Of a stretch of 64,000 nucleotides of DNA, positions 18,069 through 55,626 are shown one piece after another (within the stretch, counting starts at the first letter, position 1; each line of letters opens with the position of its first letter). Origin of the DNA: Lama guanicoe (Eukaryota); assembly GCA_013239625.1 (NCBI GenBank), contig MU053369.1:97479-161478 (forward strand). The letters are read 5' to 3'. The notes under the pieces are model-generated. The model made no database searches. It was not told the origin of the DNA and worked only from the letters and a program-made list of their open reading frames with translations. A program made the position numbers and the translations under genes.

Positions 18069-18095
18069 CTGGATCAATGAGAAATTCTTGTTCAG
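18069..18095 (-). other. Candidate 27-nt micro-exon
   Basis: cttgtacttttatgcag|CTGAACAAGAATTTCTCATTGATCCAG|gtacgt; frame-preserving length. Confidence 0.4.
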
Positions 18096-25765: not shown

Positions 25766-26357
25766 GCAGCCATATATGGACAAGGTCCAGAAGAATGAGT
25801 GTAAGAGGTGGCTAGCAGGGATGGCATTTAAGCAAAGGGCAAGATGTGCTTTCCAGAAAAAAAAAGCGAACAATCAGAGGCACAAGGAAATTCAGTGCGT
25901 TCCTGAGAAAGTGCATGGTTGCTTCAGTAGGACTGCCGTGCAGGGCTGTGGGGGATAGTGACAGGAGACACAGTGAGGGAGTCACCTGAGAATATTCCCC
26001 ACTGCAAGCAGCTCAGCCAATTCTCCTCCCTCATCCTGTATTTTAGAGCCATTTTTGCTAGGTTTTCTCTTATTTCAATTAAAAGTACTTTAGTTACACA
26101 TCTGATCATCTACATCAGACCACATTACCTCCAAGCGACAGAAAATCATTCACTGACCGGAGCAGCTCCAAGACATAACGGTGATGGACCATGGAGTCCT
26201 GTAGCATCCCAGCCTGCAGGCACAAACCACACATGTTCCCTGGTGATGTCCGGAAAGTAAAATGCATGGAAATATCTCACTGCTGGTGCACGACATCTGC
26301 CCCAAAATTGCCCCAAAATCATGCTGGCAAAGCACTACTCAACCCTGTCACTACCGG

Positions 26358-26448
26358 AAAAAAAAAAAGACAGAGAGAGAGAGAGAACAAAAAGAAAAGG
26401 AAAGAAAAGAAAAAGAAAGGAAAGGAAAGAAAAAGAAAAGAAAAGAAA
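26358..26448 (+). repeat. Purine-rich (GAAAA/GA)n low-complexity tract
   Basis: aaaaaaaaaagacagagagagagagagaacaaaaagaaaaggaaagaaaag... Confidence 0.9.
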
Positions 26449-27490
26449 TGAATAAAGCTAAGAAAGCAAATTTAGGCTCTTCCATTGAAAATCAGCAACC
26501 ATCACTGCCAGTATCTGAGCTGGAATGATCCTGACTTCAGAAACCACTGCGCAGTTACTTTTCAAACATGACAGACATATATGTATTTCACGTAGATGAT
26601 ATTACAGTAGGATTTTTCTTTTTGAAATTTCCAGTTGCAACATTAGCACAAGAAAGTTTATGTTTCAGCTTTAAAAAAAATCAATTATTTTCCACTTTGT
26701 TAATTTTGAATCTATTATTATTTTATAAAGGGAGCTATGCTGCAGATTATAAACCAACTGTTTGGCTTCTGCAAATAAGACCTATATGACTTCACTATTT
26801 CAGAGCAAGCTTTAACGATGCTTTGAAAAGTGCTGTCTGGGGCGCTCACTAACAGCTCTTTAAATACTGACAAGAATGTGCTATTAAGTAATGCAAAGGC
26901 TCTAACTACACATCAACTCAGAAAACCAAAGAAACTACACCAAAGCCTTACTTTATCATTTTTAAATATTCCGATTCTTTTTAATATTAAATTTCTTAAA
27001 AGATAAGTTTTTTTTTTGAGAAAGACAGCAGTTGCATTAAATTTCCCCTCATCAAGAAAGCAATTTTATCAAGAATTAATACCCCTATGGAAACCCAAAA
27101 GACGGGACGTTTCTAGCTAAGTGAACATGCAGATCTCAACACAAGCCTATATTCTATCAGATCTCAGTCGAACGAGCTCAACAAAGTCCTGGGCTACCCT
27201 GGAACTTAGCTCTTCTGTTCCACATGTTGGCTGAGCTAGGATCATCACACAAGGCAGGGAAGGAGAGAAGAGGAAAGTCCAGCTGGCGGCCTCCATCTGT
27301 TTTCTTCCAGCCACAAGGTGCCGCTAGAGCGACCCCGCTAAAAAGCCCTCCCCATAAGGAAATCCGGCATCCACACTGCCCCTGAAGTCCCCAAGTAGCC
27401 CCGACGCCCCTCTCCCACTGGTCACCTCCCAGCCTGTGAATGGTCTTCTAAAGACCCTCCCAGTTGGTGGCACCCTCCCCCTCTTCCCTG

Positions 27491-27492
<2 letters not shown>

Positions 27493-27537
<45 letters not shown>
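27493..27537 (+). repeat. (CA)n microsatellite
   Basis: About 20 AC units. Confidence 0.95.
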
Positions 27538-27538
<1 letters not shown>

Positions 27539-30500
27539 AGCCAAGGCAGCCTTCCCAAATCACAAATTTGATTACATCACCCCCACTTCAAACACTTCAG
27601 AGGCTCCCGGGTAGAGTTCTAGCCCCACCCCCGATCCTGCTCAGCCAGACCCACCACATTACCCAGGTCCACAGTGACCTCAGGGGCCCCGTGACCTGCT
27701 GGTACTTCCCACTAGCCTCCAGGCTCATTTTGACTGTTTGTCAAGGAAGCCTTCCTTCCCTCCAACCTCCGCACTTTGGATTAGGTGCCCTGCTGTGTTA
27801 ATAGAACATTTTAATCTAAGTCAACTTCTGACACTGCTAAGCTCTCAAGAAGCAAGTACATTTTGCTTACTACTGTGGGTCCACCCCCTCTCCCCTAGGC
27901 ACTCAGAATTGCGTGTGTTATGAATAAAAGAATGAAGGGGTGGGACTCAAAAGGACAGGCAGAGCTGCTCTCCTAAGGGTCACTTCCTGCTGACACCATT
28001 CACTGCCTCCTCTGTGTCAGTTCTAGTAAAAACCAAGCTCCTCCAAAGCCCTCCACCCCTAGGCCCTCTCCAGTGTCCTTCAAAGCAGGGTCACCCACCA
28101 CCCTGGACCACACAGGGCAGTCTCCCCGAGTCCCCACCCCACAAGCCTCCAGGCCTCTACCCGGGCTGCTCCTGCCACCTGAGTCACCCTCTTGATTCCT
28201 TCCCCTGGCTGACTCTTACTCTGTCCCCAGAACTGAATGTAGAGCCAATTTCTTCCAGGAAGTCCTCCCTGATGATGTCCTTTAGCTCTTGGCTGGGCTC
28301 CATCTACAGCAGCACTGCTTGGCGACCAACTGGTATTTGTCCACCTGCTCCTTTGAGACCATGACCTCTTGGAGGCCACGTGGGAAAAAGGAGTGAGGTG
28401 ACAAGAGGGGTGGGAAGAGCAAACAGCAAAATCACAGCTCAAGTCCCAAATTCAAGGATTCTGTCTCAGATAAAAAGAATAAAATGTTTCATAGGTGTGT
28501 CATTTGGCTATGATTTTTGTGGCTCATGGAAAACAAGAGCTTGGTGTTCAAGTCTAAAATCCAAGTTACATGCAAAGAAATGTATATATTCATATCCAAA
28601 GGAAACCAGAGCTGCTCAACAACACTTTGCAGTTAAAATCCAAAGGAACTTTGATGAAGGCAATCTCCATCTTTTTATTTTTATTTATTTTTTTTGGTAT
28701 CATATAGTTTTAGGAGTATTTGTATAACTAAGTGATGGCTACAGCTTATGATTCTGCACTGGAGTGTTTGGGGCTAAGGAATCCCAGATTACATGTACTG
28801 TGTAAATGCAACCACACCAACACAATGACAGGCGCCGTAGTGGCTGAGCTGAAGTTACAAAGCAGAGAATCTTACGTAGGAAGACAGCTCTCAGTAGAAA
28901 GTAAGAAATGCAATGTTCTGTACTCAATTTCATTAGCTTTATGAGCCATTAACAGATAGTATGTCTTGTCTAATGAAACCCCAAAATATATTGTCATCTT
29001 CGATTTTCTCCATCTGACTGTTTTATGCTAAATTTGGATATCAAACCCTCACTCCATACGGAAAGCTTAGGCCTACACTGCAGCACAGTTACATCCCGCG
29101 GAAGAAAGCCGATCAAGGGAGAACTGGAGAATTTCCCTTCAGAAGCTGCTAAGTGTGGTTTTCCACCTGTACGACATTTGCAACCACACCATCATCAAAG
29201 GAGAAAGACCTTACATCTGTGAAGCGAAAAGCACTGCGGTGCTTCCGAACCATCAAAGAACACTTAGCGTTGTGCAACAGTCCTGAGGCACTTAAAGTGT
29301 ACTTTCTCTGAAAGGCTCCGAAACTGACTCACTTCACCATTTCAGATACAACGGGGAGGTACCGGAATTAGAAGAGAGAACATGCCCTTGAAGTCTGAAA
29401 AGGCCCTGCTTGAATCCTGCTACAGCATTTACTAGCCGTTAAACGGACCAATTCCTTAACCCCTCTGAGAAGGCTTCCCAATCTGCAAAATGGGGCTGCC
29501 ACCGCCCACCTGGGAGGCATGGATGTGAATGCAACACGCAAGAAGGGCGGCAGACTGGTACCTGGCACGGCGCCTGGCTAGTTTCCCTCCGCTGCCCTTC
29601 TCCCCTTTTAAACTTGCACTGTTCCCTCTGATAAGGGTGAAGCCCCCGGAACAGACTGCCCAATTCTTCTGTGTATCCCCGGATACATACCTTACCCTTA
29701 GGAGGCCAGAAAAACAACTGCCTCCTCCCCAGTTACTATCAATGTTCTTAAGAGTCTGGGTTTTTTTAACTCTATGTTGCAGGGAGACTATTCCAGAATT
29801 GTTCAACCACCTTTCTCCAGGTTGGCTCCTCTCCCAGCGCCCATCCCTTCTCACCACAAATCTTCTGTCTGATTGCCTTTTGTTCATGGGAAAGAGAGTC
29901 CGCTAGGGTGCGGACTCCCTAGGCCTCCCTCCCTTCCTCACAGGAGAGTGTGACTACCTTCTCCCAACTCCCCACTGTGACTCCAGCTTCTGAGGAGGTT
30001 CCCCTCCTGGACCCTGCAGCCTCTGGATCGTCCCAAGACGTGCACACTTGGCCACAACTCTCCCTTCAGATTTCTTCCTGGGTGACCCTGCCCACCCCCC
30101 AGAACCTTAAGGATAAATGCCATTGCTCTGAAAAACACAAACGCCGCTGACTGACACACCAAAGCTGCATGGTCTGGGCTTTCCTCCAAACCAGGCACAG
30201 CCCTGCCCCCCCTCAGCCACAGTCTGCACCTCTTGAGATGACCTCATCCACTTGCACGGCTCTGAACACCAGCTAAGTATGATGAATCCCAACGTGTATC
30301 TCTAGTCCGGCTCCTTCACCTGAGCCCCAGGCTCATAGACCCGAGTGCCTCTTGGAAGTCCTAACTTGGATGACAAATGGCATCTTAAAAATGCCTTATG
30401 TCAAAAAAAAAAAAAAGCCTTATGTCCACCATTTACTCTAGACTTCGATTCCTGGCAGGTACCTCCCAGGCTCCCCATTTTAGTAACAGCCCCAGCACCC

Positions 30501-30700
30501 ACCTAGGTGTTTGAGGTCACATTCATTTTCCACTGTTCCCTCCAACTGGCCCTGCCCTGGAATCAGTCTTGTCATTTCTGTCGCTAAGCCAGTCTCAAGT
30601 CTGGATCTGCAGGGACCACGGACGGAAACCCACAAGCTCACAGCAAGGTGCACTGAGTCACAGTCCTCCGAAGGGAGCTCCCTGGAGGAGGAGGCATCTC

Positions 30701-31009
30701 CTTCCGCCGGTCACCTCAGAAGGCACTGGATTCTCACAAAGGAGGACCAGGAGAAGGGACTAAAGGATCTCCCATGGTCTGAGCTTTGAAGGGCCCGAGG
30801 TCTGGGGGAGCTCCTAGTTAGCTGACACTCCTGCCAGTGAGCAGATGAGGATGGACTTCCGCCGGTCACCTCAGAAGGCACTGGATTCTCACAAAGGAGG
30901 ACCAGGAGAAGGGACTAAAGGATCTCCCATGGTCTGAGCTTTGAAGGGCCCGAGGTCTGGGGGAGCTCCTAGTTAGCTGACACTCCTGCCAGTGAGCAGA
31001 TGAGGATGG
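30701..31009. repeat. Exact 154-bp tandem duplication
   Basis: 30701-30854 and 30856-31009 (cttccgccggtcacc...gcagatgaggatgg) appear identical, separated by a single A. Confidence 0.95.
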
Positions 31010-34000
31010 GGGATCCCAGGCAAGGCTGCTCTCGCTCCGACCCCTGGTCTCTCGGGAGCCACGGGAAAGGCCTGTTTCCTTGGCACAGCCCGGCCATCAC
31101 AGATCCCAGCCTGCATTTGCCAACTCAGACAGCCTAGACTCCTACTTGCGACTCTTACTTCTGTTCTGTTCGCCCCCCAGAATGTGATGGACTCTTTCAG
31201 AAAGTCTGGCCTGTCTCAAGCGAGACCAAGTCAGTGAAGGATGAAGTGTCCACATTTGGACCAGAGCATGAAAGGAGAAACAAGGCCTCATGGCCAGCAT
31301 GACGGTGGTGGCCAAACCCTTCCCCTGGGTGAGATGAACCAGGGTGGGGGTGAGAATGCAAGGTCCCTTCACGACTGACAGGGGTGTTGTAGACTCACTA
31401 CAGCAAAATAACGACATGGCCGTCAGTGGTGGAATCAGCTGCAACAGACACAGAGTCAGATATTAACTGCCAAAAAGGGGTAAAAGTAAAGGCCGGCGCA
31501 GGGAGGCCTGCACGGCTGCTGAGGCAAACCACAGACCCGGCTCTTAATGCCCACTGGCTGAAGCAGAGTGGAAGCTATGGTCCCCTTTAGCGGTCCCTGT
31601 GTCCACCAGATCCAAGTGAACCAGCTACTTAGGAGAAGGCCATGTTGTCCTGATACTTAGAAAAACCAGCCTCATAAAGGGAACAAAAGAGTGGCATGTA
31701 TTTTAGACCCGCTCCTGCCCCTCTATGAATGCAAAGTAAAGTAAGTGGCACTGGGAAAGTGAATGCAAAAATAAAAACAAAAAACAAAAAACCGGTGACT
31801 GCTTCCTCCAACAGCGTCACCTGCAGCTGCTCACCCCCGAGCCGGCCACTTCCTCACCAGTGACCGCCGGCCAGGAAGCGCCGTCACGCACGTCACACAG
31901 CGACAGCCAGGAACCGTGTGCCGAGCACGTTTGTGTAAAAGCCAGAATCAAGCAAGGTGCTGCAGATTTTGACTTTCCAACTTTAAATAATCCATGAAAA
32001 AAATCCCTAAGTCACCGCCTAAATCAATTCGCATCTCACTTCTTCAAAACAAATAAACAAAATTAGTAAGAGCGCATTTGTCACCAAATATAAGGAGGAA
32101 CAAACAGGTTCCTCAAAGCAAGGACTTTAACAGGTATCAAACTCCAGTGGATGATGCACTAACAGAGCAAAAATTCCAAAAAACTAGAAAATAAGAAGAT
32201 GACTAGGATAATATATGGATCAAGGCAACTGTTAAGTTTTTACTTTTTAAAGCGATGGAGACAGCACAGAGGGCGATCTGGCTATTTCCAATGCAGGGTG
32301 TGCACAGCCCACATTTTCAGACCCAACAACATGCTCACAGGGTGGTATAAGAGAAAAAGGAAAAGAGGAACAGCGAAAATTAGAAACACACGAGAACAGA
32401 AATAACTGAGAGCATTTACAAGAATTTACGAGAGTGTGATGAGGACAGGGACGTGGGGACGGTGAGACCCACCCTCACCTCCTGATCCAGGGAAGGCAGG
32501 GGCCTGAGGGGAGCGGCGCTAACGGGGGACCCAACGTGGTCAGCGCCCCAAACCAAAACTTCACCTAGATGCGTGTAGACAACTTTTGAGCTACAAAATG
32601 TGGTCGCATTACAAGCTGGACAATTTTACTCACTCCCACCAAGAGAAACAGGGGAGAATTAGGCTCTGCTCCTGCACCAAAGCATTGTTTTAACAATTAA
32701 TGACTGTGGAATAGTAAAAGCAACAATGGAGTAAAAGTGACTGGAAGAGAACGTGCTTGACCCAAGCTCACTGGCCGCGTTAACTCACTGACGTTCAGAT
32801 GCTGGCTAAGCCCTTATGGTACCAAAACAGACAGACCCACAAGGAGGGAGGTTTAATGCGCTGCTGTATTTTGATGCCTGGAGCCATACCTGGTACACGA
32901 GGTTCTGGGTAAACAATGGTGACAGTGTCAACCACTATGGGCTAAGCACACATCCAGCTACTCCGCCAAATCCCAAGGACAGACTTCAAAAGGCAAAAAC
33001 AAGCTGGAATTCCCTGGTGGGTCTGCAGTCTCAGAGCCAAACAGTTGCTGAGCAAAAATGTCACCAGTGTCTCCTATGACAAAAGAGGAGGCACTGGCCT
33101 GGGGGCTGGGGCAGGAATCCGGGCTTCCACTGCTCACTCACCAGTCTGTCCAGGGGGAGAAGGTGGTCCCTGCTTACGTTGCACCGATGCACCTACATTG
33201 ACTAACGCCTGGGGGCTCAGCAGGAGGTGACAGGTGAGGTGAACGGAGCCAGCCTGCCAGTGGCCGGAGCTGGCAGCTGTGCCCTCAGCTTTGCCCAGGC
33301 CACTAAACCTGCCAGCTCATCTACAAGGAGCAGAAGGGGAGTGCGGGCGCATAGATCACAGGGCCCTGCGAGGACAAGTACAGATCATGGCCACGACATG
33401 CCTCTCCCCTTCCTGAAGCCGCAGTGGCATGTCCGGGGAGGAAGTGAAAATTAATCCAGAGCCCGCCAGGCACCACATGCAGGTGGGACACAGTTCCCCT
33501 GTGCCTGTCATTCACAGGACTGGTGTGGACTTTCTTTTTATCAATTCTCTGGCATCTTCTCCTCCAACTTACCAACAACCAGAAAGTAAAATCTGACGTT
33601 AGAATCACAGAGCACCCCCTCCACAGCGGGCCCGGCAGCACGTGCCATGTCCTCCAACCATCACCTGTGGTACCGCCATGAGCGCTCTCCAGACTCAAGG
33701 CCTGAGGCCGTAGGCTGGGGGGACACAGCTCCCCTCAATCTCCCGAGTAAAGGGGGACCACTCATCGGCAAAGACATCTCACCCTCTTCTGCCCGAGGGA
33801 CAACTTGAAAGATACACAGGGAAACATAGTAGAGGGTGAGGAGGTAGGCAGCCCAGAAGAGCTCATCTGCACTTCCAAGGCAGAGTGGGGCCTTTGACCT
33901 AATCACAGGGACAAAGTGAGGATGAATTTTTCCCTGCTCTGTCCCATTCTCCGTGACACGCATTTCCCTTTGTAAGGAGCTATTTTGGAAGCACCTGTCA

Positions 34001-34181
34001 GTGTTTCTGATGTCCTAACTTGGCATGGCGGCTTTCAGGCAGGGTAGAGGGCCTGAGCCTTGCTGGTGCTGGGCCTGGGAGGCAGGAGACACCGGCTCCA
34101 CCCCCAGCTCAACCAACTCCTCATTCTGCATCTCAGGATTCAGAGTCTCATTTATAAGCAAAGGGATGAAACTGTCCAAGG

Positions 34182-34494
34182 ACAGGCTGTCCAACAGGAA
34201 TGAAATGAGAGTCATGTAAATAACATTTCCCAGTTGCCACGTTTAAAAAGTAAAAAAAAAAGAAAAAAATACTAGAAACTGATTTTAAGAACAGATCTTA
34301 CTTATTCTACTGTATGTAAAACACTATCATTTTGACATGTAATCAATATAGAAAGTAACAAGATAGTTTAAATTCTTTTTACTAGACAAGTTTCAGCGTC
34401 TGATGTGCATTTGACCTACAGCACATCTCAGCTCAGACCAGCCTCCTCCCCTGCGCTTCTAGCATCAGTGGCTGTGGCTACTCTATTGGACAGC
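34182..34494. mobile_element. MER33/MER3-like hAT-Charlie non-autonomous DNA transposon
   Basis: Terminal inverted repeats gctgtccaacag ... ctattggacagc around an AT-rich core containing tttgacatgtaatcaatat. Confidence 0.75.
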
Positions 34495-34732
34495 AACTCC
34501 AGGGGTCCCACCAAGTGTTCTGGCTGAAAAGGGGGAGTAAGTGTCCACACTAACCCTAAAAGGATCTCTCTGAAACAAAGGCGGATTCACTTTTAAACGT
34601 CTGAAAACCGGCGGGCTGCACCTCTTTCCCGCCTTGGCTACAAGACAGCCCTCCTCCATGCTGATCCCATTCAGGACATAGGGAAGCAACCTTTCACACA
34701 GCCAGGGTGGCCCGGCCTCCAGGTTGACTTGC

Positions 34733-35305
34733 CTGCTGTCTGTGTCCAGTCCCACGAAGTCCTCCTTCTCAAACAGGATGTAGAGGAAGGGAGTCTTCTC
34801 CTGAGAATTTTGGGGGTCCCCATCCAGGCACTTGGACTTGGGCAAGATGAAGAGTGACTCAGTGAAGTCCTCGATCCTCTTCTCCACCACCCTGCAGTCC
34901 TTGTAGATTGAAGGCCACGTCAGCGCGCGGCTGCTCGGCCACCTCCCCATACAGCACAGAGACAAAGAGCTGAGAGTCGTAGAGCGTGGTGCCATACAGC
35001 TCCTCTGGGCGTGGAGCTTCTAGAAGGTCTTGGCCAAGAGGCAGTCGGTAATGATGACAAGGCCCACGACATTGCGGTGGGTCTGGAAGTCACTCCATCC
35101 ATTCTCGGGTGCATAGTGATACCTATAGTAGATACAGGGTGCCCACTGGGAGCCGCACGGGCTGATCTGGCTCACCAAGGAGATTCCATTATAGATGCAA
35201 AAGAAATTCTCCTCTAAGATGATCCCCACGGGTTGGACCACAACGGGAAGAGTCTGGTGGTCCTCAGCACACTGCACGTAGTCAGGGGCGCTCATGTTGC
35301 AGGCC
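34733..35305 (-). pseudogene. TRAPPC9: Unprocessed pseudogenic copy of the first coding exon of TRAPPC9 (NIBP, TRAPPII subunit)
   Basis: ATG at 35295 opens [32 protein letters not shown]...[19 protein letters not shown], and the exon ends [14 protein letters not shown]...[14 protein letters not shown]. This matches the TRAPPC9 N-terminus as I recall it ([24 protein letters not shown]...[12 protein letters not shown]). Acceptor tctcccctctcggcag| lies 10 nt before the ATG; donor-like CAG|gcaagt at 34732. Lesions: TAG at 35020-35022, a 1-bp and a ~5-bp deletion (frameshift then restoration), and in-frame losses of ~3 and ~12 nt. Confidence 0.95.
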
Positions 35306-38345: not shown

Positions 38346-39139
38346 TTTATATAATAAGTAAAAATAAAAGCAACGCCATAAAAAAAAGTAAAAGTACACG
38401 GTAATCCCCTTAGCTGTAGGTGGTGGAGAACTCTGCAAGCACCAAGTCCACTCGAACACTCCAGCACTGGCTGTCACTCATTCTAACCATCAGAGAATCA
38501 CTTGGCTTCTAGGAGGTTACTTAATTGCCATCCTCCCCAGATCTATGTAAAGGTTACTTCCACCCAGGCAGTGACTCCTGAAGGACAAGAATCATGTATG
38601 AACACAGTCTCAAATTCAGAACAGAACCTGACAACAATTAGGCTCTGGAGTCTGTGTTTAGCGAGTGTGGAATCTCAGTGATTCCAGCTCTTACACCTTG
38701 CCTTCCCATCCCACCCTTCACGATATGGCCCTTATGACCAGTTCTCCTGGGACTGGGGCCACGGAACCCATTTACAGGACTGGAAGAATCTCATCATGTA
38801 AACCATCCCCCAGATTATCATCAAGGGTCACCTGCATTTCAGGGATCAGTAATCCCAGAAGCTTTGCAGTTCAGGCAGCTGAGGGATTTTTATATCAGCT
38901 CTGTCTTCTACTGTGACTGCCTGGGTGACATCAGACAAGGAATTCTCAAAAGCCTGAGCTTTTCCTTTCAGGAATAATCTAATTAACAAATCTCATTGAC
39001 CATTTAACAAATGTGATGTGAGGATCAATGATTTACAAAGGAGTACAACATTCACTAGGTTGTGGATTTAGAATCAGAGAAAAATCATTTGAGAAAGATT
39101 GACAGAATGCAGCTTTAATGCAAATTTAAGTATTCTTAC

Positions 39140-39249
39140 CTTTCAGTAAATCATCTTCTCCTACTTATCACTTCACCCAAGTTTAAAAGATGTTTGAGAA
39201 TAGGGATGAGTGTGCCAGCAATCTGTGACCCAATAACCTAAAATGTCAC
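39140..39249 (-). other. Candidate exon (110 nt), probably non-coding or decayed
   Basis: Acceptor cccctgtttttcctag|G, strong donor AAG|gtaaga. Confidence 0.45.
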
Positions 39250-39471: not shown

Positions 39472-39551
39472 CTGAATAATAAAGACAAAGGAGAACAAGA
39501 GAGTTCTGCCCCTCCCCAGGGGTGAGCCCAGACCTTGGGCTGCATGCACTG

Positions 39552-41677
39552 CGCCCACCTCCCAGGAGAAGGATAAACTGGAGAAGGNNNNNNNNNNNNN
39601 NNNNNNNNNNNNNNNNNNNNNNNNNNNNNNNNNNNNNNNNNNNNGGACAGCCCCTCGCTGCCTTGGCAGCTGCCTCCGACCCCTCAGCACATCCTGCCCA
39701 CCTCCGGTGGCTAAGCTGTCAGGGAAACTGTGCTTTGCGACCTGGGGCAACAGAGGCTGCCCCCACGCCAAGCTGCGGAAGAGATGGGAGCTAAACCACC
39801 AGCTCCCAAGCAACAGGCTCCATACCCCCACCAACACCGCACCGCCCCCGCACCCTACCGCACCCCTGGGGCAATATGACCCGGAGAAGGGTGACCTGGG
39901 AATGAGAGGCAGCAGAAGCCGCCCCCATGTTAGGCCTCCAGAGAGATAGGAGCTTATCCTCCAGTTCGCCAGGGGCAGCCCGCCTCTCCTCTCCACCCTC
40001 TGATCTCACCGAGCCCACCTCCCAGGAGCAACCTGACCGGGTGTGGGGTGTCAGGCGAAACTTGGGCGGGAGGGGCCGTCCCCAGGCCAGGTCAGGGGAG
40101 AGGAGAAGTGGCCCCATTAGGCGGGGATGCTGGCCGTGGCAGCTGCCTCTGTCCCTCGACCGCATCGCGCCCGCCTCCCAGGAGCAAGCTGACCTGGAGA
40201 CGGACCTCCGGCTTCTTGGGCAGCAGAGGACGCCCCCAGGTTTGGCCGCGGGGAAGAGGAGAGCAAATTGACAGGCCCCGCGCTGCAGGTCCTCTACCTC
40301 TGCAGTCGCCACCCCCCGCACCTTAAAGGCACCGCCTAGGGCGCCCCTCCCCCAGCAGGCTGAATGGGACAGGTGTGTCTGGTGACCTAGGGCAGGAGAG
40401 GCCACTCCCACACCAGGCCATAGGGGAGAAGGGAGCCAATTCACCAGCTCCCCAAGGCAGCCCCCTACCCCCGCAGCAGCCACCATTTTTGCCCCTTGAC
40501 CTCATGGTGGTCTCCTCTAAGGAGCAGGCTGACCTGGAGATTGACGTCCGGCGAACTTGGGACAACAGGGACCGCCCCCAGGACAAACCATGGGGGGAAA
40601 TGGGAGCAAATGGACTGGCTCCATAGGAAAACCTGCCACTGCTGCCACCAACCCCAACGTACCACGCCCGCTTCCCGGGATCAGGCCGACTAGGATACAC
40701 GTGTCTTGTAACCCAGGGCAACAGAAACCGCCCCCAGGACAAGCCGCGGGGAAGATGGGAGCAAATGGGCCCGCTCCCCCGCTGCAGGCCCCCGACCCCC
40801 GCCACCCCTGCACCCTGATTACCCTGCCTCCCGCCCCCAGCAGGCAAAGTGGGACAGGGGTGTCCCGGGACCTGGCGCAGCAGAGGCCGCCTGCAGGCCA
40901 CGCTACACAGACATGGGAGCTAGTCCACAGGCTCCCCCGGGGCAGCCTCCCTATCCCCGCAGCCATCACCTTACCAGCCCCCTGACCGCACCGCACCCAT
41001 CTCCCAGGAGCAAGCTCTCCTGGAGACAGACCTCAGGCAAATCTCCGGCGGCAGAGGTCGCCCCCAGGCCAGGCCGCGGGGGAGAGAAGAAATGGAGCAG
41101 CTACCTGGAACGGTCCCCCTCCCCCTGGCGCCGCCGCCGCCGCCTCCCAGGAGCAAGCTCACCTGGAGACCTGCGTCCCGCCTCTAGGACAGCGGAGGCC
41201 GCTCCCAGGCTCGCCGCGGGGGAGAGCGGAGCGAATTGACCGGCTTCCGCGCGGCAGCCCCCTTACCCCCGTGGGTCCCGCACCTTTTTGGCACCGTTCC
41301 CACTCCGCACTCAGCAAGCTGAGTGGGACAAGCGTGTCCAGCGACCTGGGGCAGCAGAGGCCGCTCCCACGCCCGGCAGCCGGGACAAGGCAGCTATTCC
41401 ACCAGTTCGCCAGGGGCAGCCCCGCTCCGCCCCACTGCCGCTGCCGCCGCCCCCTGACCTAACCACCCCACCTCCCAGGAGCAAGCTTACCTGGAGTCCA
41501 ACATCTGGCGAATCTCTGGCGGCCAAGACCCCCCCAGGCCAGGCTGCAGGGAAGAGAGGAAATCGACCGGCTTGCCCGGGCAGCCTCCCACCCGCCGCCG
41601 CCGCCGCCGCCGCCNNNNNNNNNNNNNNNNNNNNNNNNNNNNNNGAAATCGACCGGCTTGCCCGGGCAGCCTCCCAC

Positions 41678-41715
<38 letters not shown>
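39552..41715. repeat. GC-rich diverged tandem repeat (satellite-like), ~161-bp monomer, ~13 copies, ~485-bp trimer periodicity
   Basis: The anchor CCCAGGAGCAAGCTGACCTGGAG (and variants), followed by GGCAGCAGAGGCCGCCCCCAGG and a purine-rich tract, recurs at about 39568, 39710, 39871, 40028, 40184, 40355, 40524, 40681, 40840, 41010, 41153, 41314 and 41481. Confidence 0.9.
41592..41713 (+). repeat. (GCC)n trinucleotide tracts flanking an assembly gap
   Basis: Pure CGC/GCC runs at ~41592-41614 and ~41678-41713, with a 30-N gap at 41615-41644 between them. Confidence 0.9.
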
Positions 41716-41963: not shown

Positions 41964-42839
41964 CACCACCTCTTGGGCCTGTGGCAGAGTCTCTGCTGTT
42001 AGACCAATGCACAGGAATTCACATCTTTGCCAGTATATGATGCATCAGTGGACGTCTGTGGTTGGCTGCAGGAAGGTACATGTTCCTGGTCACTAGCCTG
42101 GGCCACTAGAGTGGTCTCTGTGAGGTCATCCAGGATGGGCTCAGAGATGCTGTTTTCCGGGAAGAGAGGAGTTGAAACCGGTCTTGAGGGCAGAGCTGTG
42201 CTCACCAGGCCGTCCACGTTTCATGTTTTACACAGGGCTTGGGGAAGTGAAATGGACCCGGCCAAGTAAGACCGGCATTTTGTGCACCTACCTCAGTCCT
42301 GGGCTCTGAAGCAAACCGACTGGCTCCCACCCTCAGGGCCCATTTTGGGCACCTGAATGTTCCCTTGGAGGCATCCCATCAGTTCTCAGGAAGAAGTCTG
42401 GCTGCTTCCACCTCATGGCCCTCCCTCCCACTGTACTGGCCTCAGGAAGTTTCCTTATTTGGGGAAGAAGGCAGCCCACCCCCTACCCCACCCCTCAGCG
42501 TGCTCTCACTCAGGCTGGTGCTCTCTCTGCCCTTCAGAGTCTGGAAAGCCATCCCTCTTCAGTTATGTCCCTTCTGAGATGGACTTGCTTCCAATCAATT
42601 CTAGGCGAGGATGCACCATGGAATGCACTGGGTAAGAGAACCAAAATAAATACTTTCTTCTGTGAGGTTTTCTGTTTATCTACTGGGGCTGGGCTGCGTG
42701 TAGTTTGCTACAGCTATTCGTGCGAGAGGTTAAAGCCGCCTGTGTGTCCTTGTTTTCATCTCCCTGCTGTCTTTGGGTTTTCCCTAGACACTCCTGAGAC
42801 CTTTACTTCTTTTAATTTTATTCCTGTCATTACACAGAG

Positions 42840-43510
42840 GCCCTACTGTCATGGAGGTAAGGTGTTGGGGGAGCGGGACAGAGCAGGGCATCTGTAGTCC
42901 TGTGATTAGTTCTCATTGAGCCTGTGCCCTGAGCTGTGACTTCCACAAGTGTGTCTCTTTCCCCCCACCCCAATTTGGGTGACACAGAAGGTATTTCCCT
43001 TACGCCAGGTTGGTTAGGCTCTGGTAAAATAATTTCTCATTAAAAAAACAAACAAACAAAAACAACTTCCCCCAATGAAACAGAATGTTCTGGGTGTATT
43101 TCAATACAGTTATTTTCTCCTCTCCAGGCAGGAAGCATGAGGAGTTATCCTCTGACCTTCATTCTGAGAACAGGACACAGTCCTGGAGGTAAAATGCATG
43201 AAAAAGAGCATGGGGCCCCTCTGACTGGCCCCCTGGAGTTGTCACACTCAGACTTCCCCACGCTGAGCCTCCCGCTGGCCTCAGGGACCTGTTAAATCTG
43301 CCTGCCCCCGGGATTCTTACAAAAGCAGGTTCTGCCCTGGGAGCTGTGACTCTCCAAGCCCGCCCGATTGCCTCTCTGGTTTGGGAGCAGCTTTTCCCCA
43401 GTTTTCTGGGATCTAAGAAGAGCAGTGGGTTTGCAGCTCCCTCAGATCTGGTGTTGTTTTCAGGACAGAAGATGCAACTTCTGAGCTCCACATGAGCTGG
43501 ACCAGAGGCT
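42840..43510 (-). mobile_element. Old L1 5'-region-like fragment
   Basis: tagtcctgtgattag...gagcctgtgccctgagctgtgacttccacaagtg; family assignment from memory only. Confidence 0.45.
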
Positions 43511-46344
43511 GGAAGCCTCCCCTCCTCTGCCTCCATGCAATCAGTGGCTGTGGTTCTAGCCGAGTTTCTGAAGATGTGGATTTAAACACACACATCCCAG
43601 CCCCCACAGGAGCACACAGTCCCATAAATCCCCCTAGTTTCCACTGGTAACTATGGAGCCGATGGGGACACGGGTTTCGGGACCACAGAGGCCTGACTGC
43701 ACGACTTGCTCCGTGGCCTATTAAGGTGGTTGTTCTGGGCCTTGTCTGAAGTGGCTTGCTTACCGCACCTGGTACGTGGGAAACACAAAATAAGTACTAG
43801 AACCTTCACTATTTCTCCCTCCAGGGCCTTCAAACGTAGAAAGTAATAAGTGAACTCAGACGGCATAGTCACCACAATGAGGTCCGACCAGCCTGGCTCT
43901 CCTGAGTGATGGGCACTGACTTTCACCTTAATTCGGAACAGTAGGGGACCCGCCTACCTCTAACTGGGCCTCTCCCCACACCGGGCACGCCCTCAGCTGA
44001 GACGGGGCCAGCTCCCCCATTGAGGTGTGTGCTGGTGGCTTCAGTGTGACCTGGCCCTGCCTGGACATGAACCTGCAGTGAGTGAGGTGGAGGGTCGGAT
44101 GGAGGGGGGTCCCTTCTGGGGTGGCAGGGGGCCTGGGAGCACCCCACCCGGCCTGGTGCCTGGGGCTCCCTAACACCTCCCACAGCTCCTGGGTTGGCTC
44201 CGGTCCTGGCCACTCCACACACCCTCCCAGTATCTTTGATTTAAGTCCCTTTTTTGCTTTTATCAGCGAGAAGTGGCTTCTGTTGCTTGTTCAGTGAAAC
44301 AGTACATCGGGAAACCAGACTACTTCTAACATCAGTAAAATACCAACCTCGGTCAGCTCGCCGGGCAGACCGTGCAGCACAAAGGCCTGAACAGGGCTAA
44401 AGGGTCCTCATCATCTGTCTTCAGAGATGCAGAAGCTGGTGGTTCAGTAAAACCTCAGGGAGGGATTGAGGAATCCAAAGCTGGTTGGTTTCAAAGGCTA
44501 ACTGGTCAGACCAGACCCCTGATCTGTGGTCAGAAGCCTGGCTCAACATCACGCAGACTCAGCACCCTAAGTGCCGGGTGGGGCTGGTGGTGTTCCCTTT
44601 GCAGGCTGTCATTGGGGATTAACTGTAGCCCCTTAAATGCAGCAGAGATTCCAGCCCCCTTAGCCCCCACCCTGAGTGTTCCATGACACAAATCCCGGGA
44701 GTGTTTAATTTTCATCTTTGTTTAGGAGGATGAAGGTGGGGCAAGAGGAGACATAAATTCATACTGACTGACACAAGGTCACAGCCAGCACCTCCTCCTC
44801 GGAGAGCTATGTGCTCCACAGTAGTGGCTCGGGGCTGGGCGGAGACCCTCCGCTGGTCCCAGAGGGACTCACTCCTCTGGCCACAACTGACGGGTTGGAC
44901 AACAGATCCAGAGGGAGACAGAGCATCTTTCCTGGGAATTTGGAACTCACACACAGAAATCAAGTTCATTCATCTGGGGATTGGTGAGGGGGAAGGGCGG
45001 TGGTTGGAAATCAAATGAAACCAGAGCATGAGAGAAAGTTAGAAGTGAAAGAGAGAGAGACAGAGAGACTGAGCTTGTGAGAGCAAATAGTCAGAAAGAA
45101 GGCAAACAATCAGGGGACAGAGGAGTTCCAGCTCCTGACTGTCTAGTCTGTCCCAGCCCATCAACGACCCCGTGGGATGGTTAATATCATTCCAGTTTTG
45201 CAGATTAAGAAACGGGCTGAAAGAGGTGGGGGCTGGGTTTGGGTGCACAGTTAATTTAAGTGCCACTGGACCCCTCACTTCCCATTGCCTGAAGGCACCG
45301 TAATCCCTACTGGGACCTCTGCAGTACCCTGACCACTCAGCACCCTGATCAAAGGGCCCCTGCGGGAGTGGGAACCCCTCTGAGTGTGGAGAATTCCCTG
45401 CACTGACATGTCATGCATCAGCAGGCTACTGCTCACCCCAGGTTAACATCTCCCCAGCTGTGCAGTCTCCCGGCCCGCTTCCCTCCCTGCCAGGCAACCC
45501 CGACCTTACCACCGAGTGTACTGCAGGAATTCAGGCACAGGGATGCCCAAAGCAACACGAGCCCACCGGCTATACAAACAGCAGACTCCCAGACCCACCT
45601 GGGTTCCGAGGGGACAGTAGGCGTCCTCACCGTTCATGTGTCTAAGACAATCTTCTTCTTCAGCTGGAGGTTATAGAGAAAAATAAAAGTCAAAAACATA
45701 GTTCGGTGAGGAATTCCTCCTAGGACCTGACTCCAGAGTCTACAACCAGGTGTACCTACCCCCCGGACTTGGGGTGAAAGTGGATTATTGATCAGCACAA
45801 CCCCTGGTGGCCCAGCTCCTCAGCTTGGCTGCCCAGAGGGGGCTGGGGGAATGGGTAAGGCCAGGGCACTCAGGAAAAGCACAGAGGACATGACCACTCC
45901 CCTCTGCACTCGTAAACCCTTCCCCAAATCTCAAGGCATCGGACAGAGAGCAGCCACCACAATAAGGAGATGCTCCCATCTCTTCACTAACTCCTGTCGG
46001 TTCACTTACATGCTGAGCATCCACTGGGTCCCAGGACATGATACACAGGATGGCCAATGGGACAGGCTTGGTCCTTCCCCCTGGAACCTGTTCAATCTGA
46101 TGAAAGAATGATCACTCATAAAGAGTTTCTCAAAATTATACAGAGACCAAAGACCAACTGCAGAGTGAACCAAATTTAAAAATATATATGAAGATCCCCC
46201 AGTCTCCCCATCTAAGGTTAACAGCATAAAGCAAAAAATTCTTGCCTTTGATCACCAAGGAAGTTGTCACACCCTCTCAGGTGGAAAGGAGAGTTATTCT
46301 TTGAGCAGAACACAGAAGTGCTCCATCGGATTGGACCAGGGCAT

Positions 46345-48420
46345 GTACATTCATTCAGCAAATGTGTATAAGCTCCTACTACGTAGGGGAATTTCCTAAC
46401 TAGACCCGTTTCCAAGGCTCTCGGGCTTTATCAGTCAACAAAATAGACATGACTCCCCATCACTGGGGGCTCAGAGTTTTAGCAGAGGAAACAGGCAGCA
46501 TGTTGGGGGTAGCAAGAGTTTGGAAAAATTTTTAAAAAAAGAGTGATATGAGCAAACTCGGGTGATGGCGGCGGGGTGGGAGTCAGGCAGGAGGGAATAA
46601 GGCAATCCTGGCAGATCTCACGGAGTAACGAACTTGAAGCAGAATAGATCCGGAGGAAGAAGGAAGAGCCGGAGCCAGAGGCCCCCAGAGTGATGGGGAG
46701 AGTGTGGGCGGAGAGGCAGAGCATGCCGGATCCTGAGGCCTTTGTGACGACTTTGGCCCCTAATGAAATGGTGACCCGTTTAATGAGTTTTGAGGGGAGA
46801 AGTGATGTAGTCCAACTTATGCTTTTGTGTTTGTGTTTTCTGGGGGGAGGTAATTTATTTATTTTAATGAAGGTGCTGGGGATTGAACCCAGGATCTCAT
46901 GCATGCTAAGCATGTGCCCTACCACTGAGCTACACCCACCCCCCAATGTATGTTTTTACAGGCTCCCTCTGACTCGCTGTGGATGAGAGATTGTAGGAAA
47001 GCAAAGATGGAAACAGGAAGCTATTGGTGTCCAGGAAGGGCTGAAGGTGGCCCTTAGGAGGGCGGGGAGCAGGGAGCAGGTGGTTAATGAAGACAGAGTA
47101 TCCAGAATTTTCTAACAAGCTGGATTTGCTGTCTGTGTGTTAAAGAAAGAGAAAGGACATGGTTCCAAAATCTGGACCTGGAAAATGGGAGGGATGTCCT
47201 CTCCATCCACAGGGGATGGGACAAGGTGGGGCTGAGCAGATGGAAAGGGGCTGGTATCAGCTCAGTTCTTCAATGTCATGGTTAAGGGATGTAATACATA
47301 TTGCCACAGAAATGCCTAATAGATAGAGGAGTCTGTTTTCTTTTTCTTTTTAACATTTAAAAAATATAATTAAACATATTAATTGTATTATGTGAATGAT
47401 TTGGGAATTTTGTTTCATGCCAAGTTATATGTTATATATAGCCAAATGGAGCATATATCAGAAAAGGGGAGAAATAATGGCTTTCACATAAGCTGACTGT
47501 CCGTAACGTAGGTAAAATTTCAATAAAACCAGTTTTCAGTGCAAAAACCTCATCTCGGTGTTACATAAAAGTAAATGAAAAAGGACTATGTTGATGCATT
47601 ATTATTTCATATTACATAATAGCCCCAAACAAACACACTGTTTAACTCTGAGGCTTGTAGAAACACTATTTGCTTTATTCACATAAATACAGAAATGCAG
47701 AAAGGTTCTAAGGTAGAATAAGCATCTTAGTGGAAATAATACAGATTTGAGCATTTTACATGATACATATATTTACTGATTCAAAATTTGGAAAAGTAAT
47801 TACATAATAGAACATATGTATGAATGTGAAAGCAAGATGAATGAAAGAAAAAGAATGTGAGCCTCAGGGATAAAGGTCCAGATGGAAAGGGCAAATCAGG
47901 GAGTTTTGGAGAAATCGAGAAATTGATGGCATGCCAATTTCCAAGGCTGGGTTGCTTCCACCAATGGAATAGCAGAGAGAGAGAGGAGAGGCCCAGTAAC
48001 CAACCCTGGGGCACACCCACAGTATATGTTTGGGAAAAAAACAGGAGACATTGGCAAAGGACCAGCCAGCAGGCCAAAAGCAGAAAGACAGAGAGATGGG
48101 CTGGAGGTTGAGTGAAGCAGGAACACGGGGTAGGAGGGGTGGACGAGCTGGGTCAAATGCTGCTGAGGGGCCACGCATGATGAGGACTCAAAATTGACCA
48201 CTATATTTAGCTACATGGGGTCACTGATGGCCTTGACAGGGCAGTTTCCATAGAGCAAGGGATAAGGCGAAAAGCCAGAGTGGGTGTAAAAAGGGATGGC
48301 TCAAGAGAAGATGCAGACAGTGGGTTTAAACAACTCCTTAAAGATTTGCTGCAAAGACACAGGGTGGCAATTGGTGGGGGTGAGTTAGGGTCAAGGAGTG
48401 CTGTTCGTTTCTTTTAAGAG
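46345..48420 (-). mobile_element. Fragmented L2 LINE with a nested SINE and an AT-rich insert (~47340-47860)
   Basis: Starts cattcattcagcaaatgt (reversed L2 3' end); later ttagctacatggggtcactgatggccttgacagggcagtttc. Confidence 0.65.
46823..46944 (-). mobile_element. tRNA-Ala-derived camelid-type SINE inserted in L2
   Basis: Reverse complement reads gggggtgggtgtagctcagtggtagggcacatgcttagcatgcatgagatcctgggttcaatccccagcacc plus tail. Confidence 0.88.
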
Positions 48421-50019
48421 GATGGACCTTTATATACTGATGGGAGCCAACTAGCAGGAGAACAAAATAGATGAGGTAGTGACAGAGAGGATGGTTTTGG
48501 GAGTGACAACCCAGAGAAGATGGGAGGGATGGGGCCTCGGGGACTTTTGGAGGAGAGGAACTGGGATGTCACTTGTAATAAGCGGTGGGGCACCGAGAGT
48601 GAGGTCACAGACATCAGAAGGCGAGCGGATGTGCTGGGAGTTGCTTGTGAAATTTCTCTTCTGTTGGCTTGTTTGCTTGTTCAAAGTAGAAAAGTAACCT
48701 TACCAGCGGAGGAACGAGGAGGAAGAAAGAGTTACTGGAGCCATGAGCAGTAGATAAGAAAGAGCCTTCCAGGGAGAATGGGACAGTGAAAAGGGCAGGG
48801 GGAGATGGGGGAATGCGCTCCCAGAAAGTTACATTTTCTCTTTGACGTCCCCAAATGTGTGATGTGTGATTGCCCTTCCTGCTGTCTACAAAATAAAAAT
48901 TAAGTATGGTTCAGAGGAAATGCTATTTCATTCTAAGAGGCTGCCTGTTTCTCAGGAATGGNNNNNNNNNNNNNNNNNNNNNNNNNNNNNNNNNNNNNNN
49001 NNNNNNNNNNNNNNNNNNNNNNNNNNNNNNNNNNNNNNNNNNNNNNNNNNNNNNNNNNNNNNNNNNNNNNNNNNNNNNNNNNNNNNNNNNNNNNNNNNNN
49101 NNNNNNNNNNNNNNNNNNNNNNNNNNNNNNNNNNNNNNNNNNNNNNNNNNNNNNNNTATCCTTTTCTTCCATGGCTTCCTTAATATGCAGTTCCCCTTGG
49201 AATTTAAGAATGTCTGGTATAAGAAGTGAGAAACAGTTTGAGAAAATCCCGGCACAGAATTACACAGCACAACCGCATCTCACAAGTATATACAGCCGTA
49301 AAACAGTTTAAAAGCAAAACTCCGTAACTACTCTTAAAGACCTTTGCAAACCTGGGCCTGCCAAGATGTTTCCAAACTGGAAAGGAACTCCAATCACTAG
49401 CCAGGTACCGGGACCAGAGGTTGGTCAGTCTTTTCTGTAAAAGCGAGAGAGTAAATATTTTCAGTTTTACAGATCATTTTGTTGTAACCATGCAGGTCTG
49501 CAATAAGAAAGCTAAGAGCACTGGGAGACAGGAAACAAATGGGCATGCCCACATCCTCTCTTCCACTCAGGGCAGCTTCTCTGTGGTGAGGAGCTTTGCC
49601 ACAATCACTTGCTTCTTTGTTTCTGATGGTTTCTTTGTTTCCACCTTACTGCTCAAGCTCAGAACTTCAGGTGGGCCTGGTCCTTCTGCATCCATGCAGA
49701 GAGAAGGGTGAGCGGGGGTGGGAACCCCACCTGATGGATTAGAGAGATTGCTGGGAGGGACACTGCAATGGCCACCATGACACGAGACAATCACACCTTC
49801 CAGGGTGAAAGGGAATGAAGACAAGGGAGGGACACAGCAGTGGGACCCCAAGGTTGCCTGCCAGGCTTGCTCTCCCTCCACGGCCACCCTGGGGGCCTGG
49901 GTGGTGTTGGAACTCAGCTACAGTGATTAGGCTGAGGGGACTCAGGATAAAGGACCCTCCACCTCCTCACTAGGTTCCAAACGCAGCCCCTCTATGTCCA
50001 CCCTCTGAGTTTCTGGAAC

Positions 50020-54329: not shown

Positions 54330-55230
54330 GCCCATCAGCGCGAATTCAAGGCCGGCAGCGGGCCTGGCGGATTTGCACTTCAGGTGCCCTAACTGGCCAG
54401 CTGTGTGTGCCTGGGTTCAGTCCTCTCTCTTGCCCAACGGCAGCCTGGGTCCACGTCCGGTGCAAGCGGAGGCCGCGGAGCCCAGGCAGAGCCACGCATA
54501 CGGACAGGTGAGGGTGCCCCCGCCCCGCTGCCCCGCTGCCCCGCTGCCCCGCCCACTAGTGGCGGCACTGCCCCAGCCTCCGGCCGGCGCCACCTGCAGG
54601 TCAGGACTTCCACGTAGCCGCGCCCGCCCCGGGCCCGCCCAGCTGCCCCATAAGCCTCCCCCCAGCCCCCGTCCTGGCCGCGCCCTGGCTCCCATTGGCT
54701 CCGCAAGTTCTGCCCTCGCACGTCTAGCCTCGGAAGGAGGCACGACGCAAGCGCAGGGGAGGGCCCCGCGGCGTTGCCATGGCTACAGGCGCCGCGCCCC
54801 GCAAGGCCAGCGTGCACTTCTGGGGCGGGGAGCGGGCTCCGGAAATGTGTAGCTGCTAGGGACAATGGCTGTGCTTGCTGCTGGGGCTGGCGGCTTGCTC
54901 TGCCTGGCGACTAGTTCTGGCCTGGTCAGTCGGCGGCAGACATCTTGTCTGGGGCGGCGTCCCACAGATGGTAAACCTACGGCCGCGCAGTTGGCGGGGC
55001 CAGTGGACATGGACCGGGGTGGGATCTGGGTTGGTGTGGCGGCCGGGGAGGGGCTGTGGTGCCGGGGAGCGGGTTGGGGCGGGGGGGGACAGGGCTGGGA
55101 CACAGCCTCGGGCTTTCCTCCCCCTCGGGCTCTGGGGCTGGGACCGCGATTCCGGGTAGCCCTGAGTGGCGGCGGCCTCCCAGAACCCCCGGGAAGGGCA
55201 AGCGGAGGACCCGTCTTTTATGAAGCGGGG
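54330..55230. promoter_or_regulatory. CpG island / promoter carried with the POFUT2 copy
   Basis: Very GC- and CpG-rich. Motif matches: CTCF-like CCTGCAGGTGGCGC (minus, ~54587-54600), inverted CCAAT (ATTGG ~54694), RFX X-box-like GTTGCCATGGCTAC (54773-54786), GC box GGGGCGGGG (~54822-54830) and ETS-like CCGGAA (~54839), all just upstream of the ATG. Confidence 0.75.
54865..54970 (+). pseudogene. POFUT2: POFUT2 pseudogene exon 1 (frameshifted signal-peptide exon)
   Basis: Shifted frames read LCLLLG... and [18 protein letters not shown], matching POFUT2 ...FLLLGAV...[20 protein letters not shown]. Donor ATG|gtaaac at 54971. ATG to donor is 106 nt, versus about 131 nt expected from the human protein, so the POFUT2 frame is lost. 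Confidence 0.9.
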
Positions 55231-55626
55231 CCTTACCCGTGTTTTGAAGAGCCCCAGAATCAGATGTTGGAATGGGGTGGTTTATCAGCCTTGTTTATCT
55301 GCAGGGAAATTTCAGTTCCATCCAGATTTTGGCTCCCTCGGTAAACCTCAGGAATAAGACAAGGGTCAGTGCCGATTAGCAGTTATCTAGGGCTTGACTC
55401 AAAATAGACTGTGCGGGCTGTAGGGATGGTAGATGGGCCCTCCCTCTCAAGGTTGGCAGTCTTCTGGGATTAGAGGCCCCAGTGGAGGATTACATTCTCA
55501 TCTGCAGTAATGGAGGTTGTGGGAAACATTAACACAGGGAAGGTAGGGGTGTGGCTGCTGTAAATCATTAAAGAAACCAGGACCCTTGCCTGGCTCTTGT
55601 GTAGGAGAGTCTCGCCTAGGGTAGGG

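What the first reader, a model, noticed from the sequence alone, without database searches (positions are those of the whole stretch)
39552..41715. GC-rich ~161-bp satellite with a three-monomer higher-order repeat
About 13 monomers; mean spacing 161 bp from 39710 to 41481, close to a nucleosome repeat. Three variants recur in order. Type A (GGCRAANCT-like core) is at 40028, 40524, 41010 and 41481. Type B (GGGRAGA..GAGCRAAT) is at 40184, 40681 and 41153. Type C (GCARGC..ARTGGGACA) is at 40355, 40840 and 41314. Same-type spacings are 471-497 bp. The array is CpG-rich, and linkers are C-runs or GCC runs, giving G-quadruplex potential on the minus strand. I do not recognise the family.
Basis: seen in the sequence. 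Interest (0 to 1): 0.75.

Follow-up and report, generated by a model that had tools for sequence, protein, structure and literature searches.

The report
Old repeat spliced inside camelid duplicon
This is a short, heavily worn 13-unit GC-rich repeat, not a live satellite; it sits inside a DNA block copied to many camel chromosomes, where gene models use its splice signals to join pieces of unrelated genes.

Summary
The array is real: 13 monomers of about 161 bp (39553-41614), 61% identical on average. The period-3 pattern is real but weak: 65% identity at lag 3 against 59% at lag 1, permutation p=0.002. Type C forms a weakly supported group; types A and B do not separate. Trimer copies differ by 30-41%, far beyond even 'dead relic' alpha-satellite higher-order repeats (9-15%), so this is a fossil of old block duplications, not a satellite HOR. 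It lies between a broken POFUT2 5' fragment and a broken TRAPPC9 5' fragment in a camelid mosaic segmental duplication. RefSeq models from at least 23 Bactrian and 14 dromedary loci run through paralogous arrays on the minus strand. They splice at the monomers' conserved CAG|GT donor and at nearby AG sites, and single loci show alternative junctions. One paralogue splices into an MRAP2 fragment. The predicted ORF has no family, is equally conserved in different frames, and is broken in this copy. Best reading: an ancient repeat carried and exonised by a core-duplicon-like, probably non-coding transcript. No reads were examined, and the repeat's origin outside camelids is untested.

The parts
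39553..41614 (.). Degenerate tandem array: 13 monomers M0-M12 of about 161 bp, 67% GC, with a weak trimer (and hexamer) duplication signal
39553..39696 (.). M0 (A-like), interrupted by a 57-N gap at 39588-39644; camel paralogue proteins read through it as one monomer
41491..41543 (-). 53-nt exon in M12, with an intact pyrimidine tract plus AG acceptor and a CAG|GTAAG donor; its upstream junction is present in 47 of 49 family proteins examined
41020..41209 (-). Alternative exon spanning M10/M9. Acceptors used in camel models map to about 41209, 41204 and 41183. The M9 donor reads GA, not GT, in this copy
39534..40214 (-). Long alternative exon starting at an AG acceptor in M4 (40214) and running through M3-M0
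   Evidence: P0206, P0248
39534..39715 (-). Commonest downstream exon: acceptor in M1 (39715), at the same AG that precedes the donor GT in other monomers; exit donors at 39559 and 39534
41590..41715 (.). (CCG)n expansion of the last linker with an N gap; 41645-41700 duplicates 41559-41614 exactly; intronic in the camel models
42023..48614 (-). Upstream exons of the same transcript family (about 48614-48575, 46099-46010, 45679-45512, 45223-45170, 42634-42512, 42166-42023); in-frame stop at about 42574 in this copy
39176..39249 (-). First exon downstream of the array (AG acceptor at 39250); its 3' end was not fixed
38405..38520 (-). Exon that a Bactrian TRAPPC9-like model (P0006) splices to the TRAPPC9-like first coding exon; the matching donor reads GG in this copy
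3124..35305 (-). Intron-containing broken TRAPPC9 5' duplicate: exons at 35295-34729 (stop and frameshift), 26225-26127, 10123-10001 and 3240-3124
54400..56555 (+). Broken POFUT2 5' duplicate with its CpG island (exon 1 remnant at about 54906-54968, exon 2 at about 56361-56555), head-to-head with the minus-strand transcript; candidate promoter (inferred)

Best explanation
The array is an ancient, short, GC-rich tandem repeat that grew by duplicating blocks of three (probably also six) monomers and then stopped turning over. It is now a passenger in a camelid mosaic segmental duplication, between the 5' ends of POFUT2 and TRAPPC9 pseudogene fragments. That duplication has been copied to many chromosomes. 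A minus-strand transcript, starting at or above 48.6 kb and most likely driven from the POFUT2-derived CpG island, crosses the array. Each monomer carries a pyrimidine tract, several AG or near-AG sites and a CAG|GT donor-like motif, so the spliceosome picks a few of them: a constant 53-nt exon in M12, then alternative acceptors in M10, M4 or M1 and a second donor in M9. The transcript then leaves into whatever gene fragment lies downstream (TRAPPC9-like here, MRAP2-like in another copy). The RNAs are most likely non-coding by-products. SHOWN: array, period-3 signal, flanking fragments, collinear mapping of camel RefSeq models onto GT/AG sites, multi-locus family, broken ORF in this copy. INFERRED: promoter position, read-through into TRAPPC9-like exons, age, non-coding status, transcription of this particular copy.
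For: Flanks: TRAPPC9 exons in genomic order with introns. The best hits are 24 camelid-only truncated paralogues at 73-85% identity. POFUT2 exon 1 and exon 2 remnants: E 5.6e-5 and 1e-19. Family: an array ORF finds one hit among 1.84 billion representatives, which clusters with Bactrian LOC141579336. That protein finds six further Camelus clusters. Of 91 members in these 7 clusters, 48 were listed; they name at least 23 Bactrian and 14 dromedary loci, and the Bactrian-only records lie on 7 different chromosome-sized contigs. Junctions: after the M12 exon, 32 of 47 proteins continue in M1, 12 in M10 and 3 stop. After M9, 5 of 9 go to M1, 2 to M4 and 2 to an MRAP2 exon (three of the M10 cases read by eye). 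The same locus gives different junctions (LOC141578212 X1 vs X2; LOC135318464 X1 vs X10; LOC141578987 X1/X3/X4/X5), so these are splice variants and not genomic deletions. The window has GT or AG at most of the matching positions. Age: K2P distance between monomers is at least 0.28, mean 0.48 at lag 3, while the window and a camel copy share 179 of 203 residues over six exons, about 5% DNA divergence by inference. Non-coding: five exons read in two frames each are 84-97% identical in both, with no consistently favoured frame. No Pfam family for 7 of 7 proteins, no Atlas hit, and a stop codon in this copy.
Against: All transcript evidence is second-hand. It comes from predicted RefSeq XP_ models, seen only as proteins; reads from near-identical paralogues can be projected onto many loci, so the number of expressed loci is unknown. 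No reads were examined. No retrieved model joins an array exon to the TRAPPC9-like exon directly: the link from the 39.2 kb exon to the 38.5 kb exon is missing. This copy has lost several sites (M9 donor, one M10 acceptor, the main acceptor of the 42.2 kb exon, the 38.4 kb donor) and may be silent. The 273-aa ORF differs at only 1-4 residues among 7 of 7 full-length camel variants, which fits recent copying but also constraint. GC-rich repeats can diverge fast, so the age is rough. The start site was not located.
Confidence: 0.68

Rival explanations
1. The array is the functional core of a camelid core-duplicon gene family: a splice switchboard that lets one promoter module capture new 3' gene fragments, and possibly makes a de novo 240-273 aa protein in Camelus.
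For: At least 37 named loci in two camel species; the ORF is open and almost invariant among them. The M12 exon is nearly constant (47 of 49). Different copies have different downstream partners. This parallels TBC1D3/USP6 (PMC11610581, passages).
Against: No favoured frame; ORF and several splice sites broken in this copy; no homologue outside Camelus; no domain. Near-identity is expected from recent duplication alone.
Confidence: 0.13
2. The array is a stranded, decayed piece of a former camelid satellite with a trimeric HOR, captured at a duplicon junction, with live homogeneous arrays elsewhere.
For: Period-3 signal. Alpaca pseudogene-rich blocks are intermingled with GC-rich satellites (PMC13751797). 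The adjoining minisatellite shares one 13-mer with the start of VpaSat04-5242 (post hoc and weak).
Against: Trimer divergence is 30-41%; monomer order is conserved in paralogues. Catalogued alpaca satellites have 1.8-8.5 kb units; 3 of 3 primers tested (of 26) miss the window; 0 of 6 array motifs occur in the readable first 400 bases of the 14 consensus sequences.
Confidence: 0.1
3. The array is itself a promoter made of tandem alternative first exons (MAGE-A4-like; comparison recalled), replacing the native TRAPPC9 promoter.
For: It lies 4.3-6.4 kb upstream of the TRAPPC9-like ATG exon; the upper half has CpG o/e 0.64; the sense strand is G-rich; 4 donor-like CAG|GTVAG motifs against 0.18 in shuffles (the monomers are not independent). 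The sequence resembling native TRAPPC9 exon 1, seen weakly in paralogues P0009/P0010, was not found in the window.
Against: In 47 of 49 proteins the array exons are internal, preceded by exons at 42-48.6 kb. Protein models cannot show non-coding starts, so some initiation in the array is not excluded.
Confidence: 0.09

Closest known systems
Primate mosaic segmental duplications and core duplicons (TBC1D3/USP6 fusion, PMC11610581 passages; NPIP, search listing only)
   Same: Lineage-specific, many-copy, transcribed block juxtaposed to different gene fragments, with fusion transcripts.
   Different: Camelid. The shared exons here come from non-coding DNA and a degenerate repeat, not from a known protein family. 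Over-representation in an SD graph, selection and rearrangement breakpoints were not tested.
Dead relic (divergent) alpha-satellite HORs (PMC6447721, passages)
   Same: Monomer classes recur in a loose order; no recent homogenisation.
   Different: Divergence 30-41% against 9-15%; only about 4 units; GC-rich; no link to a centromere shown.
Alpaca satDNA families VpaSat01-16 and pseudogene-rich satDNA blocks (PMC13751797: abstract, parts 2-4 of 8, passages, spreadsheet supplement)
   Same: Camelid repeats among multi-copy gene fragments.
   Different: Those units are 1.8-8.5 kb in long arrays. The main text has 0 mentions of TRAPPC9 or MRAP2 and says its blocks are absent or much reduced in camel assemblies, whereas this family is abundant in camels. 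Consensus cells were cut at 400 characters, so a sub-repeat deeper in a unit is not excluded. SAC-SAT could not be compared (paper not held).
Tandem repeats that multiply splice donors (F7 intron 7 type; from earlier finding e1-7788522, not checked)
   Same: A repeat unit carries a 5' splice-site motif and only some copies are used.
   Different: Here the unit is 161 bp and old, supplies acceptors too, and lies in a multi-copy transcript.
Human gamma satellite (about 220 bp, GC-rich, CTCF-binding; recalled)
   Same: GC-rich, divergent monomers.
   Different: Different unit length, short array; no CTCF-like core inside the array. Sequence relatedness not tested.

Membership tests
Satellite DNA with higher-order repeat | Head-to-tail tandem monomers | tested here: met
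   12 full monomers plus 1 gapped one
Satellite DNA with higher-order repeat | Monomer classes recur with a fixed period | tested here: inconclusive
   Period 3 p=0.0023; reached in 0 of 1500 star and 0 of 1500 single-unit simulations (these were less similar than the real array) and in 3.4% of block-duplication simulations; A and B do not separate
Satellite DNA with higher-order repeat | HOR copies far more alike than the monomers within a unit (1-3% homogeneous, 9-15% relic) | tested here: not met
   Trimer-trimer identity 58.9-70.0%, hexamer 64.4%, all-pair mean 60.6% (thresholds)
Satellite DNA with higher-order repeat | Long array of many units | tested here: not met
   2.1 kb; paralogue proteins close the left gap with one monomer; the right gap is flanked by an exact overlap
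Satellite DNA with higher-order repeat | Heterochromatic or centromeric location, methylation, nucleosome phasing | not testable with these tools
   No genome held; no chromatin data
Described alpaca satellites (VpaSat01-16, SAC-SAT) | Sequence match to a catalogued consensus | tested here: inconclusive
   No match in the readable first 400 bases or with 3 primers; the rest of each consensus, SAC-SAT, Dfam and Repbase were unavailable
Mosaic segmental duplication | Intron-containing fragments of normally unlinked genes side by side | tested here: met
   TRAPPC9 and POFUT2 fragments; that they are normally unlinked is recalled
Mosaic segmental duplication | Many high-identity copies on several chromosomes | tested here: met
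   At least 23 Bactrian loci on at least 7 chromosome-sized contigs, judged from protein records
Core duplicon | Shared block joined to different flanks in different copies | tested here: met
   TRAPPC9-like downstream here; MRAP2-like exon spliced on in P0211, P0247 and P0253
Core duplicon | Over-represented in an SD repeat graph; marks rearrangement breakpoints | not testable with these tools
   Needs assemblies
Core duplicon | Expressed gene, often under positive selection | tested here: inconclusive
   Multi-isoform RefSeq models only; no frame preference; no reads examined
Tandem alternative-first-exon promoter | Transcripts start in each unit | tested here: not met
   Array exons are internal in 47 of 49 proteins; non-coding 5' ends are invisible to this test
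CpG island | GC above 50% and CpG o/e at least 0.6 (criterion recalled) | tested here: inconclusive
   Upper half 0.70/0.64 meets it; lower half 0.65/0.41 does not

The most novel reading that the evidence does not exclude
Camelids have their own core duplicon, whose engine is an ancient tandem repeat acting as a reusable splice cassette. A POFUT2-derived promoter fires backwards, the array offers a menu of donors and acceptors, and each new insertion captures a different downstream gene fragment (TRAPPC9, MRAP2, others). The result is dozens of chimeric transcripts and, in Camelus, a de novo 240-273 aa protein kept open by selection.
Probability: 0.13. Interest if true: 0.75.

Novelty: new member of a known kind. 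Interest (0 to 1): 0.4.

Why it matters
As a satellite claim it matters little. As a marker it points to a camelid duplication family, large and apparently undescribed, in which an old repeat has been turned into alternatively spliced exons joining unrelated gene fragments. No paper on it turned up in literature searches; subscription journals are mostly not held. That would give a non-primate test case for whether core duplicons spread because they carry a promoter-plus-splice module. It also flags dozens of 'uncharacterized LOC' camel proteins as probable annotation by-products, and a region where short-read mapping and copy-number calls will mislead.

Tried and rejected
No whole genome was held. 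No read data were obtained, so expression and copy number of this copy stay open. Metagenome scan with a 26-base monomer pattern: 0 hits. Rfam: only a tRNA-like SINE at 46868-46939. Pfam: 0 families for 12 of 12 ORFs, 127 of 127 ORFs from 41.8-64 kb (271 ORFs of 70 aa or more exist in the window, and those below 41.8 kb were scanned only in part) and 7 of 7 family proteins. Structured RNA: z=+0.95 for M9-M12 on the minus strand, 15 of 20 shuffles fold as well. CTCF-like core: 0 of 7 window matches lie in the array (motif recalled). L1 5' UTR monomers: considered and set aside because no L1 ORF is recognisable next to the array (by eye). The Atlas lead of a helicase-like domain for the P0211 tail was wrong; it is MRAP2. 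My earlier reading, that the array is the native TRAPPC9 promoter, was dropped: upstream exons precede it, and the TRAPPC9 N-terminal extensions do not map to the window. PDB searches with the TRAPPC9-like ORF and P0211 gave nothing useful. Earlier-findings look-ups by sequence, words and relatives were empty.

Full report
The observation. A profile built from the array recovers 12 full monomers from 39697 to 41614 (143-171 bp, mean spacing 161) and the head of a thirteenth at 39553. Pair scores are 62-184 against at most 78 for shuffles, so the repeat is real, although TRF misses it. Mean identity is only 60.6%. Monomers three apart are more alike (65.0%) than neighbours (59.1%), p=0.0023 by permutation among five periods tried, and the signal appears in all four sub-segments. 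Simulated star or single-unit histories never reached it in 1500 runs each, though they were less similar overall than the real array. Random block duplications reached it in 3.4%. The classes are not clean: C monomers group weakly (62/75), while A-A identity (59.3%) equals A-B (59.9%). M1/M7 and M4/M10 are each other's best partners by pair score, hinting at a hexamer step, while M9/M12 is the most identical pair (76%). The G4 claim reduces to a G-rich minus strand: 2 canonical motifs against 5.7 in shuffles. CpG o/e is 0.53.

It is not a satellite HOR. Trimer copies are 59-70% identical. Alpha-satellite HOR copies diverge 1-3%, and even dead relic ones only 9-15% (PMC6447721, passages). The array is 2.1 kb. 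Camel paralogue proteins cross the left N gap with about 25 residues, that is one monomer, and the right gap sits between two identical 56-bp stretches. In paralogues, 8 of 8 testable pieces match their own positional monomer best, so the order has been frozen since before the copies spread. The closest monomers differ by K2P 0.28, while this copy and a camel copy share 179 of 203 residues over six exons. By inference the internal duplications are several times older than the spread of the block. The recent alpaca satellite catalogue lists only 1.8-8.5 kb units, and nothing readable in it matches (PMC13751797). Its consensus cells were cut at 400 characters, its slide supplement was unreadable, and SAC-SAT, Dfam and Repbase could not be checked.

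The surroundings. Below the array on the minus strand lies an intron-containing, broken 5' duplicate of TRAPPC9 with four exons in order. Its best relatives are 24 truncated camelid paralogues. Above it, on the plus strand, lie POFUT2 exon 1 and exon 2 remnants behind a CpG island; I was led to POFUT2 by earlier finding e1-7859014 and then tested it. Sequence resembling the native TRAPPC9 first exon is weakly visible in two paralogues (E 0.07-0.3) but not in the window. The window is therefore a mosaic duplication with the array between two head-to-head gene fragments.

What uses the array. One array ORF found a single relative among 1.84 billion representatives, clustering with a Bactrian RefSeq model. 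That model led to six more Camelus clusters. Of their 91 members 48 were listed, naming at least 23 Bactrian and 14 dromedary loci. Mapped to the window, these proteins break into collinear minus-strand blocks from 48.6 kb down to 39.2 kb. Inside the array the breaks fall on splice signals: a 53-nt exon in M12 (41543-41491) in 47 of 49 proteins; then M1 (32), M10 (12) or a stop (3); and from M9 onward to M1 (5), M4 (2) or an MRAP2 exon (2). Both internal donors are the monomer's conserved CAG|GT motif, and the M1 acceptor is that same AG where GT is missing. Single loci give different junctions, which rules out genomic deletions as the cause. A further model splices the 38.5 kb exon to the TRAPPC9-like exon, so read-through from the array is plausible, but one link was not seen.

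Limits. These are predicted models seen only as proteins. That NCBI reports such isoforms from transcript alignments is recalled, and multi-mapping can inflate the number of expressed loci. No reads were examined. This copy has lost the M9 donor, other sites and the ORF, so it may be silent. The ORF shows no frame preference across five exons and no family, which favours non-coding RNA. Its near-invariance among camel copies (1-4 differences in 273) leaves a functional reading open. Where the repeat came from is untested, since no non-camelid DNA could be searched and the protein searches found no homologue outside Camelus.

Verdict. An ancient degenerate tandem repeat with a fossil trimer pattern, carried and exonised within a camelid multi-copy mosaic duplication. 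It works like the shared, transcribed part of a primate core duplicon (PMC11610581, passages; PMC3906575, abstract only), but membership is only partly tested. It is a new member of a known kind. Interest 0.4, rising to about 0.75 if the splice cassette or its protein proves to be under selection (probability about 0.13).

Noticed in passing
window 54400-56555: POFUT2 5' pseudogene fragment with a CpG island holding X-box-like and CCAAT-like motifs at about 54780 and 54697 (motif names recalled); candidate bidirectional promoter.
   Followed up: partly
   Followed up: partly
window 41801-41985: Degenerate (CCCTGCAC)n minisatellite next to the array; resembles the start of VpaSat04-5242 by eye and shares one 13-mer with it; weak.
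   Followed up: partly
window 41130-41150: GGC run in the M9/M10 linker varies among camel models (about 7-10 codons); an exonic short tandem repeat that differs between paralogues.
   Followed up: no
window 41544 and matching positions: The M12 acceptor CAG aligns with CGG in five monomers and TGG in two, so it may have arisen by CpG decay (read by eye).
   Followed up: no
window 30701-31009: Perfect 155-bp tandem duplication; assembly overlap or very recent duplication.
   Followed up: no
window 52935-53462: 239-bp unit in 2.2 copies, 85% matches.
   Followed up: no
window 34732: The TRAPPC9-like first coding exon ends at a GC donor, and some camel models read through it.
   Followed up: no
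P0001, P0002, P0013, P0019-P0024: Camelid TRAPPC9-like models with the first coding exon repeated or placed after downstream exons, suggesting tandem copies or back-splicing; P0015/17/18/24 share yet another 5' exon absent from this window.
   Followed up: no
window 46854-46944, 18956-19046, 35734-35824: tRNA-derived SINE copies; the first passes Rfam's tRNA threshold.
   Followed up: no
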